In this document: positions 597 to 3,594 of the stretch, one piece after another | How the letters are laid out: each line of letters begins with the position of its first letter | How positions within the stretch are numbered: position 1 is the first letter of the stretch | Source: a bacterium | GTDB lineage: Bacteria; Cyanobacteriota; Vampirovibrionia; LMEP-6097 | Assembly (NCBI GenBank): GCA_046080385.1 | Contig: JBJTTW010000130.1 | Coordinates: 1-52,405 of the forward strand | Direction: 5' to 3' | Length of the DNA: 52,405 nt | Made by a program: the position numbers and the translations under genes | The notes under the pieces: model-generated | Databases searched by the model: none | Told to the model about the DNA's origin: nothing | The model's input: only the letters and a program-made list of their open reading frames with translations

Positions 597-1301
597 TTAG
601 GCTAAGTTTTTAACTAGGTCAAACCTACGGCTTACTACATCCCAATCAATAATTTTAGTAAAAGCTTCAAGATATTTAGCTTTTCCTTCTTTCTTGAAAT
701 CAGCTACATAAGCATGTTCGTAAACATCTAGAGCTAATATTGGAACTATAAAATTAGGGAAATTAGCAGAATGATCTTGCAGAGCGTAATTAAAAATTTT
801 ACCGTTAAGTAGATTAAGACCCGTTACTGACCAGCCTTCTACTTTCATCGCAAGTTCAGTTAAATTTTTCATATAGGCATCGAAGGACCCAAAAGTTTTA
901 TCAATAGTTCTATTTAGGCTAGAACTACGCTTAGATTCTTCTGTACTCATGTTCGTAAAATAGATATCATGTAAAGCCATGCCATTTAGAGAGAAGGCTA
1001 GGTGTTTTAGTCCAAATTCTGTGATATTACCTACTGCCATTTCTGCTTCAGCTTGATTTACATTTTTAACGTAATTAGAATATAGCCCTAGATGGTTTTT
1101 TATAATCTCTGGGCTTAAGCCGAGTTTATCGTTTTTAGTCAGGTGTTCAAAATTTTTCTCTTGATATTGACCATTTTTATAAATGGGGTAGAGTTCATTT
1201 ATATTAAATTTCGCTCCTTTAGAGCAAGCACCTAGTACATTACTAAGTCCAAGCCCTAAGCCAGTGAAAGCGGCCGCGTTAAGAAAATTTCTACGATTCA
1301 T
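597..1301 (-). CDS. Fe/Mn superoxide dismutase-family protein (ChrC-like) with Tat/lipoprotein signal
   Basis: Metal-ligand motifs NHLGLY, LHDIYF, LALDVYEHAY; N-terminus MNRRNFL...LGAC. The ATG at 1301 is preferred over the ORF-track start at 1334. Confidence 0.8.
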   Translation of the reverse strand: MNRRNFLNAAAFTGLGLGLSNVLGACSKGAKFNINELYPIYKNGQYQEKNFEHLTKNDKLGLSPEIIKNHLGLYSNYVKNVNQAEAEMAVGNITEFGLKHLAFSLNGMALHDIYFTNMSTEESKRSSSLNRTIDKTFGSFDAYMKNLTELAMKVEGWSVTGLNLLNGKIFNYALQDHSANFPNFIVPILALDVYEHAYVADFKKEGKAKYLEAFTKIIDWDVVSRRFDLVKNLA

Positions 1302-1414
1302 TTCTACCATAATGATAATTATAGAGCTAATCAAGCGAAGAGTGGTAACCGTGCTTGTTTAGCCATACTCAGCATGATGGCTAAGGATGATCATTTGCTA
1401 GAGGAAGAAGAATA

Positions 1415-2299
1415 TTAGTGTTCAGAGAGAAAATTAATCATCGAGTCTATTAACCTACCATTTGCCACTCGATCGAAACCAGCAAACATAGGACTCGTAT
1501 TAATTTCAAGTAAATTAAAAGTCGAGGTCTTTTTAGAAAATTTAAGATCTGCGGCCGAAAAATCTAATCCTAAGTGCTGATTCAGCTCATCAAGCTTCAT
1601 GATTAGATTTGAATCATTTTCAATTAATCTCATAGAATTATCCTCATTATTTGCTCGATAATCGAGCGCAGTAGAATTAATTTCAAAGCTAAAAAAATCT
1701 TTACCAATCTTAAAGACCCTCAGTTCAGGGTAGTCTAAAAGACTCTGACATATCATGGGAGACCTCGTGACCTGTTCTACATAGACAGTCTCGTCAAATT
1801 TATTTAATTCTTTAGTATAATCCCCTCCAGAAACGGGCTTTCTAATCATTTTTTCTTTATCAGTTAATAAATTCAAATCCCTTACAGAATTGCTAATATA
1901 AGTATCTGGTATTGAGATACCTAATCTGTGAGCTAGGTTCAATACATAAATTTTTTGAAAGAATGGTGCGGAAAGTAAACTGCGATTGAATACTTTTACG
2001 TCTGGATTAGCTAAAGTCCAAGCAGAAAATATTTGCTTCCAAGTATGTGCCAGATCATGATCATGAGGATTTTGAGTGTCTAAATATTGAAAAACATCTG
2101 TACGCATGAAAATTGCGGTAACGTCAAAAATCTGATCATTAAAAAATAAATGATTACTTTTTAAATCGTAATGAAATTTATGAAAACTATTGTCACCGCA
2201 AAGAACCACTTTAATCGATAAGCCACGCTCACTTAATAGCGTAATTAAACGAATTAAATTAAAATCTTTTTCCCCGCCGACTACTGCTATTTTATTCAT
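1415..2299 (-). CDS. RimK-like ATP-grasp ligase, probable graspetide (plesiocin PsnB-like) macrocyclase
   Basis: ATP-grasp motifs IPDTYISN, RKPVSGG, QSLLDYPELRVF, DYR, AADLK...LLEINTSPMF; directly downstream of a TTxxxxEE repeat protein. Confidence 0.85.
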   Translation of the reverse strand: MNKIAVVGGEKDFNLIRLITLLSERGLSIKVVLCGDNSFHKFHYDLKSNHLFFNDQIFDVTAIFMRTDVFQYLDTQNPHDHDLAHTWKQIFSAWTLANPDVKVFNRSLLSAPFFQKIYVLNLAHRLGISIPDTYISNSVRDLNLLTDKEKMIRKPVSGGDYTKELNKFDETVYVEQVTRSPMICQSLLDYPELRVFKIGKDFFSFEINSTALDYRANNEDNSMRLIENDSNLIMKLDELNQHLGLDFSAADLKFSKKTSTFNLLEINTSPMFAGFDRVANGRLIDSMINFLSEH

Positions 2300-2377
2300 G
2301 GTCTTAAAACATCATCTAAATATGATAGTAACTAATATTCCCGAATATTTACCAGAATAACTTAGAAAATATTTGAT

Positions 2378-2518
2378 CTGATTACCTACAAAGCCGCCCC
2401 TAATTTCAAATTTCAACCTTTCTGAAATTGAATCTTATGGTCATGCTTTAGTCATAGCCTTGATAAGTAGGTAGCATTAGATTTTAAGGCTTTTTATGGC
2501 GGCTTAATTAGGTAATCA
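2378..2518. mobile_element. MITE-like element between precursor and ligase genes
   Basis: Imperfect terminal inverted repeats TGATTACCTAcaAAGCCGCC (2379-2398) and GGCGGCTTaatTAGGTAATCA (2498-2518), flanked by the direct repeat AAATATTTGAT (2367-2377 and 2519-2529). Confidence 0.6.
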
Positions 2519-2541
2519 AAATATTTGATTACAAGTCATAT

Positions 2542-3594
2542 TTAGAAAGGGCGTCTCCCTGCTGAATCCTCTTCACCAAGTGCTTGAGTTGTAGCTATTG
2601 GAGGTTTTCCTGCTGAATCCTCTTCACCAAGTGCTTGAGTTGTAGCTACTGGGGGTTTTCCTGCTGAATCTTCTTCACCAAGTGCTTGAGTTGTAGCTAT
2701 TGGAGGTTTTCCTGCTGCATCCTCTTCACCAAGTGCTTGGGTTGAAACTATTGGAGGTTTTCCTGCTACATCCTCTTTACCAAGTGCTTGAGTTGTAGCT
2801 ACTGGAGGTTTTCCTACTGCATCCTCTTCACCAAGTGCTTGAGTTGTAGCTATTGGGGGTTTTCCTGCTGAATCCTCTTCACCAAGTGCTTGAGTTGTAG
2901 CTATTGGGGGTTTTCCTACTGAATCCTCTTCACCAAGTGCTTGAGTTGTAGCTATTGGAGGTTTTCCTGCTGAACCAAGTGCTTGAGTTGTAGCTATTGG
3001 GGGTTTTCCTGCTGAATCTTCTTCACCAAGTGCTTGAGTTGTAGCTATTGGGGGTTTTCCTACTGAATCCTCTTCACCAAGTGCTTGAGTTGTAGCTACT
3101 GGGGGTTTTCCTGCTGAATCCTCTTCACCAAGTGCTTGAGTTGTAGCTACTGGAGGTTTTCCTGCTGAATCCTCTTCACCAAGTGCTTGAGTTGTAGCTA
3201 CTGGAGGTTTTCCTGCTGAATCTTCTTTTCCTTTCAGTAGATTCTGAAGAGCCTTAATATCATCAGAATTGACTACATTATCCCCAGTTAGATCGGTTGA
3301 GAATTTAAAAGAAGAATTAATGTGACCATCTTCAGTGAATAGTTTTGCAATATTGGCGTTAGTTGAGATTTTCTTTAATTCTTTAACTAAAGAAGATACC
3401 TCTTTTTTATCAACTTTTCCGTCTTTATTCTTGTCAATATCTAAACCCAAATCTTTCAGTGTTTTGCTTAAATCATTCAAGGCAGTATTATTAGTGGGTC
3501 CCCTTAAAATCTTTTCAAAGTCGGAAATAACTTCTCTGATTAATCCCTGTTTTTCTTTTTGTTCTTCTGTAAGTCTTATATTATTATTATTCAT
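2542..3594 (-). CDS. Multicore graspetide (omega-ester peptide) precursor with 13 TTxxxxEE-type repeats and an EF-hand-containing leader
   Basis: 127-aa leader followed by 13 repeats of GKPP(V/I)ATTQALGEED(S/A)(A/V); adjacent ATP-grasp gene on the same strand. Confidence 0.85.
   Translation of the reverse strand: MNNNNIRLTEEQKEKQGLIREVISDFEKILRGPTNNTALNDLSKTLKDLGLDIDKNKDGKVDKKEVSSLVKELKKISTNANIAKLFTEDGHINSSFKFSTDLTGDNVVNSDDIKALQNLLKGKEDSAGKPPVATTQALGEEDSAGKPPVATTQALGEEDSAGKPPVATTQALGEEDSVGKPPIATTQALGEEDSAGKPPIATTQALGSAGKPPIATTQALGEEDSVGKPPIATTQALGEEDSAGKPPIATTQALGEEDAVGKPPVATTQALGKEDVAGKPPIVSTQALGEEDAAGKPPIATTQALGEEDSAGKPPVATTQALGEEDSAGKPPIATTQALGEEDSAGRRPF
2560..3213 (-). repeat. 51-bp coding tandem repeat, 13 units (one with a 9-bp deletion)
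   Basis: Unit such as tgctgaatcctcttcaccaagtgcttgagttgtagctattggaggttttcc repeated head to tail. Confidence 0.95.

What the first reader, a model, noticed from the sequence alone, without database searches (positions are those of the whole stretch)
1415..3594. Candidate graspetide RiPP system: 13-core TTxxxxEE precursor plus ATP-grasp macrocyclase
Seen: ORF 2542-3594 has 13 tandem 17-aa repeats GKPP(V/I)ATTQALGEED(S/A)(A/V), and the next co-oriented gene is a 294-aa ATP-grasp enzyme. Established: TTxxxxEE is the core motif of plesiocin-class (group 2) graspetides, in which the ligase forms two Thr-Glu omega-esters per repeat, and plesiocin (four repeats) inhibits serine proteases. Inference: this is a large beads-on-a-string graspetide with up to about 22 esters (11 repeats keep both donors and both acceptors). 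It sits among housekeeping genes of an apparently Melainabacteria-like genome. No dedicated protease or transporter is adjacent and there is no signal peptide, so the product may act as an intact modified protein.
Basis: partly seen in the sequence, partly recalled or inferred. Interest (0 to 1): 0.88.

Follow-up and report, generated by a model that had tools for sequence, protein, structure and literature searches.

The report
Thirteen-core plesiocin-like graspetide gene pair
A freshwater Melainabacteria genome encodes a 350-residue protein with 13 copies of the plesiocin-type TTxAxGEE motif next to a PsnB-like ATP-grasp ligase, most likely a large, multi-ring member of a known family of modified peptides that inhibit proteases.

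Summary
ORF 2542-3594(-) has 13 tandem 51-bp/17-aa units, and the next co-oriented gene, 1415-2299(-), is a 294-aa ATP-grasp enzyme.

- The ligase family profile hits PsnB at 2.8e-42 over its full length, other graspetide ligases at 1e-15 to 1e-18, and RimK at 5e-6.
- The AlphaFold model (pLDDT 93.6) matches PsnB chains best.
- The PsnB residues Arg72, Arg213 and the D(F/W)R loop are present as R66, R194 and DYR213-215.
- The core TTQALGEE matches the plesiocin core beyond TTxxxxEE; the PsnB paper names an 'AIGEE' region.

Comparative evidence is strong.
- 18 of 26 related loci carry the motif beside the ligase.
- Within the family, 7 of 9 ligase-positive genomes and 0 of 21 ligase-negative genomes carry the TTxAxGEE DNA pattern.

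New here:
- Orthologues have 4 or 7 repeats.
- The N-terminal 127 residues look like an EF-hand/dockerin-like pair.
- Sister genomes put the same cores into RTX-repeat proteins.

No C39 peptidase, transporter or protease was found. Independent assemblies do not confirm the copy number of 13.

Verdict: a large new member of group-2-like graspetides, of moderate interest.

The parts
2542..3594 (-). Precursor gene, 350 aa: an N-terminal domain followed by 13 plesiocin-type cores and the tail GRRPF. GGAGA lies 4 nt before the ATG.
3214..3594 (-). N-terminal region, residues 1-127: helical, 72% identical in two orthologues. It is a candidate leader/recognition and Ca-binding part.
   Evidence: orthologues P0041 and P0042; single-sequence AF2, pLDDT 57.7, helices at 10-31, 36-48, 63-76, 79-85 and 110-127.
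3400..3435 (-). EF-hand-type 12-residue loop DKNKDGKVDKKE (residues 54-65).
   Evidence: Read from the sequence. Pfam EF-hand_1/5/6/7 hits at E 0.008-0.04 are all below gathering score.
3259..3294 (-). Second, dockerin-like loop DLTGDNVVNSDD (residues 101-112), followed by the helix IKALQNLLKG.
   Evidence: Pfam Dockerin_1 at E 0.006, 17.2 bits against a cut-off of 22.9, residues 54-120. Conserved in the orthologues.
2560..3213 (-). Array of 13 units GKPP(V/I)ATTQALGEED(S/A)(A/V), residues 128-345. 10 units have TT..EE, 1 has ST..EE, 1 has TT..KE and 1 lacks EED.
2300..2541 (.). Spacer between precursor and ligase. It holds a multicopy palindromic element of about 150 nt (roughly 2366-2526) that folds strongly.
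   Evidence: MFE -59.4 kcal/mol, z -4.29; 4 more copies at 95-96% identity, a half copy, and 8 more matches of about 140-160 nt at about 72% in the own genome; contig depth 352 against about 24-31 in the flanks.
1415..2299 (-). PsnB-like ATP-grasp ligase, 294 aa. Key residues are R66, K154, R194, D213-Y214-R215, D251, E265 and N267.

Best explanation
This is a two-gene graspetide system of the plesiocin (group 2) type.

Proposed mechanism:
- The 350-aa protein is the substrate. The ligase binds it, probably as a dimer like PsnB.
- Using ATP, the ligase phosphorylates the side-chain carboxylate of the first Glu of each TTQALGEE core, held by Arg194, the equivalent of PsnB Arg213.
- The second Thr attacks to close the inner lactone. 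The process repeats with the second Glu and the first Thr.
- Each intact core thus becomes a hairpin-like bicyclic unit.

Expected product:
- The 10 exact cores would give 20 esters. The ST..EE and TT..KE units could add up to 3 more.
- No peptidase or exporter was found. The most likely product is therefore the intact or only trimmed protein, with a string of rigid loops on a Ca-binding helical head.
- By analogy with plesiocin it would act as a multivalent serine-protease inhibitor.

Shown here: gene anatomy, ligase family and catalytic residues, the core motif, and co-inheritance of ligase and motif. Inferred: ester chemistry, ring topology, lack of cleavage and protease inhibition.
For: Ligase identity:
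- The family profile gives PsnB 2.8e-42, aligned over 4-294 of 296 positions. AMdnB, MdnC, CdnC, MdnB and PruB score 1e-18 to 1.6e-15, and RimK 5e-6.
- The AF2 model has pLDDT 93.6 and pTM 0.90. Foldseek ranks 1-10 are all PsnB chains, E 5e-20 to 1.4e-18, TM 0.72-0.78.
- NCBIfam ranks graspetide maturase models first.

Catalytic residues:
- Alignment to chain 7drm_A carries a 20-residue offset, checked on the DFR loop. It puts PsnB R72, R213 and DFR233-235 on R66, R194 and D213-Y214-R215.
- R194, D213, R215, K154, E265 and N267 are invariant in 38 family members. R66 and Y214 are nearly invariant.
- The PsnB paper (passages read) states that Arg213 holds the ring-forming Glu37, that Arg72 contacts Gly36, and that the D(F/W)R loop is essential.

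Core:
- TTQALGEE fits TTxxxxEE. It also fits the Gly36-Glu37-Glu38 and 'AIGEE' description of the plesiocin core.

Linkage:
- 8 of 10 first loci and 18 of 26 further loci (flanks of 1.5 kb only) have an adjacent ORF with [TS][TS]x[AM]x[GP]E[EDN]. At least 3 of the 8 misses carry variant cores seen by eye: L029, L030 and L041.
- The background in the own genome is 1 ORF, the precursor itself.
- In the family (30 genomes), the DNA pattern for TTxAxGEE occurs in 7 genomes. All 7 are among the 9 ligase-positive ones, and the hits lie on the ligase contig; G003 has one further hit on a small contig, C274.
- The other 2 ligase-positive genomes have ST variants. None of the 21 ligase-negative genomes has the pattern. 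The reversed-pattern control gave 1 hit.

Orthologues P0041 and P0042 keep the N-domain (72% identity) with 4 and 7 repeats.
Against: - No chemistry was tested.
- All NCBIfam hits are far below their curated cut-offs, for example 44.9 bits against 350. The ligase is 21-23% identical to PsnB.
- The equivalent of PsnB Arg101, which binds the second Glu in group 2a, is His85 here.
- No clear leader motif was found. Several PsnB leader-pocket residues differ in the alignment: Y171->R, R192->Y, F203->C.
- Group 2 clusters often carry an NHLM-type transporter. None is near here, and no C39 peptidase was found in the 92%-complete genome.
- In the closest relatives the ligase sits in a different neighbourhood, with a different motif-bearing protein.
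- The kin genomes are not independent, so the presence/absence counts overstate the support.
- Independent contigs do not verify the copy number.
Confidence: 0.85

Rival explanations
1. Same enzyme family, different outcome. The array is a polyprotein that is cut between units (for example at the small-residue pair in ..DSAG|KPP..) by a protease encoded elsewhere. This would release 10-13 single bicyclic peptides of about 17 residues instead of one beaded protein.
For: Makarova et al. report GG-type motifs, with variants using other small residues, in about half of graspetide precursors (section read). Each linker here has SAG, SVG, AAG or VAG before KPP. The genome is 92% complete in 291 contigs, so a peptidase could have been missed.
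Against: No Peptidase_C39 match was found in the genome, and no protease lies within about 12 kb. Relatives embed one to a few cores inside large RTX-repeat proteins, which speaks for modification of whole proteins. Plesiocin potency is reported to rise with the number of cyclised motifs (passage).
Confidence: 0.2
2. The ligase makes fewer or other links than plesiocin. Examples are one ester per core, or a link that uses the third acidic residue (Asp of GEED) or the linker Lys (a lactam). Topology and function would then differ from plesiocin.
For: - His85 replaces the PsnB Arg101 that binds the second Glu.
- Family-f1 cores end in GEED or GEEE, whereas other families have GEEGGG.
- A relative (L018) has 11 units of TTQAFPENGGG with only one Glu.
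- RcpB of Rheinheimera modifies the variant motifs TTxxxED and VTxxxxED (passages).
Against: The Lys of GKPP is not conserved in relatives, which have LPPP, MPPP and the like. Both Thr and both Glu are the most conserved positions across loci. Arg101 was largely dispensable in PsnB (passage).
Confidence: 0.12
3. Chance neighbours. The repeat protein is an ordinary disordered or surface protein, and the ATP-grasp enzyme works on something else, for example as a RimK-like peptide ligase.
For: The ligase hits no Pfam or NCBIfam model above its curated cut-off. The context is housekeeping genes. In the closest relative the ligase has other neighbours.
Against: The motif is adjacent to the ligase in 18 of 26 and 8 of 10 loci. 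The pattern is absent from 21 of 21 ligase-negative genomes of the family. The RimK score is 36 orders of magnitude worse than the PsnB score.
Confidence: 0.03

Closest known systems
Plesiocin system PsnA2/PsnB (group 2 graspetide)
   Same: - One ligase and one precursor with repeated cores.
- Core TTxA(I/L)GEE.
- The ligase is the best sequence and fold match.
- Equivalents of Arg72, Arg213 and the D(F/W)R loop are present.
   Different: - 13 cores here against 4 in plesiocin.
- The precursor is 350 aa with a folded-looking head of 127 residues instead of a short leader.
- Only 21-23% ligase identity.
- His stands at the Arg101 position.
- No transporter or peptidase found nearby, and no C39 peptidase in the genome.
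- Found in Melainabacteria.
Rheinheimera RcpA/RcpB (group 2 graspetide, PNAS 2024; passages read)
   Same: TTxxxxEE-type core, made by a single ATP-grasp ligase. Up to five water losses were shown there by MS and methanolysis, which is the assay that would be needed here.
   Different: RcpA has three different motifs and a GG site cut by the RcpC peptidase domain. Here 13 near-identical units are present and no peptidase was found.
Corallotide CorA (group 15) and the long-repeat groups 34/35 of the 2026 RODEO survey (section 7 read)
   Same: Unusually large precursors with repeated modified motifs. Some groups consist of a ligase and a precursor only.
   Different: Corallotide has five KxxxD isopeptide motifs plus a 2OG oxygenase. 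I could not tell whether the present family already sits in one of the 43 groups, because the supplementary tables are closed.
Microviridins (group 1)
   Same: Made by ATP-grasp macrocyclases. They are protease inhibitors of freshwater cyanobacteria, which belong to the same phylum in the broad sense.
   Different: They have cage-like tricyclic cores, two ligases and another core motif. MdnC and MdnB score 25 or more orders of magnitude worse than PsnB.

Membership tests
Group 2 (plesiocin-type) graspetide | Core motif TTxxxxEE in the precursor, often repeated | tested here: met
   10 exact TTQALGEE units plus 3 degenerate ones. The motif definition comes from the PsnB paper.
Group 2 (plesiocin-type) graspetide | Adjacent ATP-grasp ligase of the graspetide clade, nearest to PsnB | tested here: met
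   The profile gives PsnB 2.8e-42 full length and RimK 5e-6. Foldseek ranks 1-10 are PsnB chains. No tree was built, because no reference sequences could be brought in.
Group 2 (plesiocin-type) graspetide | Conserved Arg213 (holds the ring-forming Glu) and Arg72 | tested here: met
   R194 is invariant and R66 nearly invariant.
Group 2 (plesiocin-type) graspetide | D(F/W)R loop | tested here: met
   D213-Y214-R215 aligns with DFR233-235. Tyr stands in place of Phe/Trp. D and R are invariant.
Group 2 (plesiocin-type) graspetide | Arg101 from the neighbouring subunit (group 2a only) | tested here: not met
   His85 stands here, whereas the family consensus is Arg. The paper reports Arg101 as largely dispensable.
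Group 2 (plesiocin-type) graspetide | Leader segment with an aromatic anchor bound by the ligase (Phe15 in PsnA2) | tested here: inconclusive
   No motif could be assigned. The candidates are GLIREVISDFEKIL (17-30) and AKLFTEDG (83-90), both conserved in the orthologues. The complex prediction gave no verdict (see Tried and rejected).
Group 2 (plesiocin-type) graspetide | ATP-dependent Thr-Glu omega-ester formation, two per core | not testable with these tools
   Needs co-expression and mass spectrometry.
Group 2 (plesiocin-type) graspetide | Frequent (not defining) NHLM-type or peptidase-containing transporter in the cluster | tested here: not met
   None within about 12 kb. PF03412 was not found in the 92%-complete genome.
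RimK/LysX/ArgX-type alpha-amino-acid ligases | Best profile and fold match to these enzymes | tested here: not met
   RimK 5e-6, ArgX 3.4e-5 and LysX 0.0095 against PsnB 2.8e-42. TIGR00768 scores 21.7 bits against a cut-off of 143.4.
EF-hand / dockerin Ca-binding modules (N-terminal part of the precursor) | Pfam match above the gathering score; 12-residue DxDxDG-type loop | tested here: inconclusive
   All Pfam hits are below the gathering score. Two loops fit the pattern by eye. The AF2 model has low confidence. No cohesin was found in the genome.

The most novel reading that the evidence does not exclude
In Melainabacteria the plesiocin-type core is not a peptide natural product. It is a portable module grafted into large Ca-binding proteins: an EF-hand/dockerin-like head here, and RTX beta-roll domains in sister genomes. 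A short PsnB-like ligase recognises each extended core (PP-h-h-TT-x-A-h-GEE) without a classical N-terminal leader.

The product is never cleaved. It would be a 36-kDa protein with more than 20 side-chain esters. It would work outside the cell as a multivalent protease trap or as protease-proof armour, for example against grazer or predator digestive enzymes.
Probability: 0.3. Interest if true: 0.7.

Novelty: new member of a known kind. Interest (0 to 1): 0.5.

Why it matters
If it is active, this would be among the largest graspetide substrates known. It has 350 aa and up to about 22 esters, compared with corallotide at about 22 kDa, which its authors call unusually large. It would also be, as far as my searches show, the first case tied to Melainabacteria (0 papers; 0 mentions).

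Plesiocin potency is reported to rise with the number of cyclised motifs. A natural 13-mer is therefore a ready-made test of multivalent protease inhibition.

The same core recurs inside RTX-repeat and EF-hand-like proteins across the class. This raises the question of whether graspetide ligases modify whole proteins in nature, which matters for protein stapling tools.

The short, well-modelled ligase (pLDDT 93.6) and a substrate with 13 near-identical sites would also suit studies of processivity.

Tried and rejected
- Complex prediction of the ligase (alignment A1) with precursor residues 1-170 (alignment A2), ATP and Mg gave no verdict: score 0.00, mark 0.32. I do not use it for or against binding.
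- AF2 of precursor residues 1-170 from a single sequence gave pLDDT 57.7 with the repeats disordered. This is too weak for a fold search, so none was run.
- The Pfam DUF5568 hit on the repeats (50.7 bits, above its cut-off) was rejected as meaningful. It covers only the repeat units, rings in none of the 14 control genomes, is absent from 10 relatives' precursors, and the only paper that names it is a human proteome study (listing only). A compositional match is likely.
- A sigma-70 promoter or intrinsic terminator between the two genes: none was found. The strong fold of the spacer is explained by a multicopy palindromic element, not by a dedicated attenuator, though it could act as one.
- Public runs and laid contigs: no contig spans the array, so the copy number is neither confirmed nor refuted. 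One contig skips 1762-3739, but with a side of only 30 letters, so I did not use it. Contigs of one RNA library, about 92% identical, cover the ligase gene of a relative only. This does not show transcription.
- A second precursor in the own genome: none was found with the motif.
Profile and fold ranks were used instead.
- Ramesh et al. 2021 is not held. Lee 2017 and Lee 2020 were seen only in reference lists.
- The supplementary tables of PMC13097080 and PMC8939145 are closed. They may already list this family or its group number.

Recalled, from no call:
- That the loop residue before Gly acts as the P1 residue of plesiocin.
- That microviridins inhibit Daphnia proteases.
Full report
OBSERVATION

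On the minus strand, ORF 2542-3594 encodes 350 aa and ORF 1415-2299 encodes 294 aa. Tandem Repeats Finder reports a single array at 2558-3227: period 51, 13.3 copies, 91% matches.

Cutting the protein at GKPP gives 13 units over residues 128-345.
- Ten units read GKPP(V/I)ATTQALGEED(S/A)(A/V) with TT and EE intact.
- Unit 10 has ST.
- Unit 9 has KE.
- Unit 5 has lost EED.
- The twelve 51-nt units are 86-100% identical at the DNA level. Five of the ten variable columns fall in the last two codons, and three are silent third-position changes.

The array therefore looks young, or is kept uniform. In the whole 2.27-Mb assembly (291 contigs, 91.8% complete, 35.6% G+C), the motif occurs in no other ORF.

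THE LIGASE

- Pfam gives only weak ATP-grasp hits.
- NCBIfam ranks four graspetide maturase models first: TIGR04187 at 8.4e-12, TIGR04192, MvdC and MvdD. RimK follows at 1e-4. All are below their curated cut-offs.
- A single-sequence search of the PDB finds PsnB (8.5e-9), AMdnB and CdnC.
- A profile of 38 family members (A1) finds PsnB at 2.8e-42 over the full length. AMdnB, MdnC, CdnC, MdnB and PruB score 1e-18 to 1.6e-15, and RimK, ArgX and LysX score 5e-6 to 1e-2.
- The AlphaFold2 model is confident, with pLDDT 93.6 and pTM 0.90. Foldseek ranks PsnB chains 1-10 with TM 0.72-0.78. Other graspetide ligases come next, and ArgX, RimK and LysX start at rank 22.

The alignments carry a 20-residue tag offset, which I checked on the DFR loop. 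With it, PsnB Arg72, Arg213 and DFR233-235 correspond to R66, R194 and D213-Y214-R215.
- R194, D213, R215, K154, D251, E265 and N267 are invariant in the family.
- PsnB Arg101 corresponds to His85 here, while the family consensus is Arg.

According to the passages of the PsnB preprint that I read:
- Arg213 holds the Glu that is phosphorylated first.
- Arg72 contacts the Gly before it.
- The D(F/W)R loop is essential.
- Arg101 is largely dispensable.

The subfamily is of modest size. Among 1.84 billion representatives there are 109 clusters at E<=1e-30 and 807 at E<=1e-3, mostly about 290-300 aa long.

THE CORE

The same preprint describes plesiocin as four TTxxxxEE cores with two Thr-Glu lactones each. 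It names Gly36-Glu37-Glu38 and an 'AIGEE' region of the core. TTQALGEE therefore matches plesiocin in seven of eight positions of the extended pattern TTxA(I/L)GEE, not only in the four ring-forming residues.

LINKAGE BY COMPARISON

The nearest relative locus is titled Candidatus Caenarcanales.

Ligase distribution:
- With the single sequence as query, ligase relatives occur in 12 of 41 related genomes.
- With the profile at E<=1e-20, they occur in 65 of 301 genomes of the class, and in 8 of the 29 other genomes of the family, which makes 9 of 30 with G000.

Neighbouring ORFs:
- In 8 of the first 10 loci inspected, a neighbouring ORF carries [TS][TS]x[AM]x[GP]E[EDN].
- The same holds in 18 of 26 further loci with only 1.5-kb flanks.
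- Three of the eight misses show variant cores by eye: TTMASPEYGGG, TTMALNEEGGG, and MTFAGEDGE.
- Many of these ORFs hold 3-9 cores, and one holds 11 units of TTQAFPENGGG. Thirteen is thus the highest count seen, but not an outlier.

Presence and absence within the family of 30 genomes:
- A degenerate DNA pattern for TTxAxGEE hits 7 genomes.
- All 7 are ligase-positive, and the hits lie on the ligase contig; G003 has one further hit on a small contig, C274.
- The two other ligase-positive genomes have Ser-Thr variants, which the pattern cannot see.
- None of the 21 ligase-negative genomes has a hit.
- The reversed-pattern control gave one hit.
- The kin are not independent, so this is a strong qualitative signal and not a statistic.

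THE PRECURSOR SCAFFOLD

Residues 1-127 have two orthologues, P0041 (236 aa) and P0042 (287 aa).
- They are 72% identical in this part.
- They carry 4 and 7 repeats of GKPPV(V/L)STQAVGE(E/K)DA(A/I), the last one truncated before its GEED.
- They have a different C-terminal tail.
- Repeat number therefore varies between close relatives.

The head contains a canonical EF-hand loop (DKNKDGKVDKKE, 54-65) and a dockerin-like loop-helix (DLTGDNVVNSDD-IKALQNLL, 101-120).
- Pfam EF-hand and Dockerin_1 hits are sub-threshold.
- The single-sequence model is helical but of low confidence.

In the sister genomes of the same genus and family, the ligase instead lies next to proteins that combine one to four cores with RTX nonapeptide repeats.
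- HemolysinCabind scores above its cut-off in 3 of the 5 family-f1 proteins among the 10 scanned, and 21.9 against 23 bits in a fourth.
- Another family shows EF-hand-like segments.

Ca-binding modules are thus a recurrent partner of these cores.

Precursors of other families start with a conserved (F/Y)(V/L/I)NF(N/G) motif. This may be their leader anchor. No clear counterpart is seen here.

WHAT IS NOT THERE

- No protease, peptidase or transporter lies within about 12 kb.
- No Peptidase_C39 and no cohesin were found in the genome, which is 92% complete.
- No promoter or terminator consensus lies between the genes.
- The 242-bp spacer holds a palindromic element of about 150 nt. The genome has four more copies at 95-96% identity, a half copy, and 8 more matches of about 140-160 nt at about 72%.

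MECHANISM

The best-supported reading is the PsnB mechanism applied 10-13 times on one chain.
- ATP-dependent phosphorylation of Glu, guided by R194.
- Attack by Thr.
- Inner ring first, then the outer ring.

This gives about 20-23 esters.

Whether the product stays whole or is cut into units is open. I favour an intact or trimmed protein for two reasons: no peptidase was found, and relatives place the cores inside large proteins. Protease inhibition is inferred from plesiocin and the Rheinheimera group-2 product (passages).

COMPARISON AND NOVELTY

The system meets the tested defining features of a group-2-type graspetide, except the group-2a Arg101. The leader question is unresolved.

The 2026 RODEO survey (section 7 read) lists 21,584 predicted graspetides in 43 groups. 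These include:
- groups that contain only a ligase and a precursor;
- long precursors with repeated motifs;
- members from candidate phyla.

The kind is therefore known, and this family may already be catalogued. The supplementary tables that would tell are closed.

I found no paper that links graspetides or ATP-grasp RiPPs to Melainabacteria or Vampirovibrionia.

I rate it a new, unusually large member of a known kind. There is a realistic chance that the protein-scale, Ca-binding scaffold makes it a distinct variant.

Noticed in passing
window 2366-2526 (spacer 2300-2541): A palindromic element of about 150 nt with a strong predicted fold (z -4.29). The genome has 4 more copies at 95-96% identity, a half copy, and 8 more matches of about 140-160 nt at about 72%, several of them at contig ends. 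It looks like a MITE/REP-like repeat inserted between precursor and ligase.
   Followed up: partly
L014 7307-7918(-), L003 2257-2853(-), L015 6562-8217(-) and 9830-10621(-), L022 2-1204(+): In sister genomes the ligase neighbour is an RTX-repeat protein that carries 1-4 TTxAxGEE(D/E) cores. The cores are often preceded by a D(V/I)EN(V/I)E(F/Y) motif at the end of the RTX domain. The ligase context there (a divergent 413-aa membrane protein) differs from the window.
   Followed up: partly
L018 6794-7831(-): A relative has 11 tandem units of TVTTQAFPENGGG, with one Glu only and Pro in place of Gly, beside a 306-aa ligase. This may be a single-ester variant of the core.
   Followed up: no
L027, L031-L034, L036, L040, L042-L044, L047: Precursors of other families in the class share an N-terminal (F/Y)(V/L/I)NF(N/G) motif, followed by 2-9 cores ending in GEEGGG. 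It is a likely leader anchor and is not evident in the window's precursor.
   Followed up: no
window 597-1334 (-): The Fe/Mn superoxide dismutase downstream of the ligase starts with RRNFL...LGAC, which looks like a Tat signal with a lipobox. This suggests an exported lipoprotein SOD.
   Followed up: no
window 2542-3270 (-): Pfam DUF5568 scores above its gathering cut-off on the repeat units (50.7 bits). This is probably a compositional false positive.
   Followed up: partly
window 1423-2300: Contigs from one metatranscriptome library, about 92% identical, cover the whole ligase gene of a relative and diverge right upstream of it. This is only a weak hint that such ligases are transcribed in lakes, because DNA carry-over is not excluded.
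   Followed up: no
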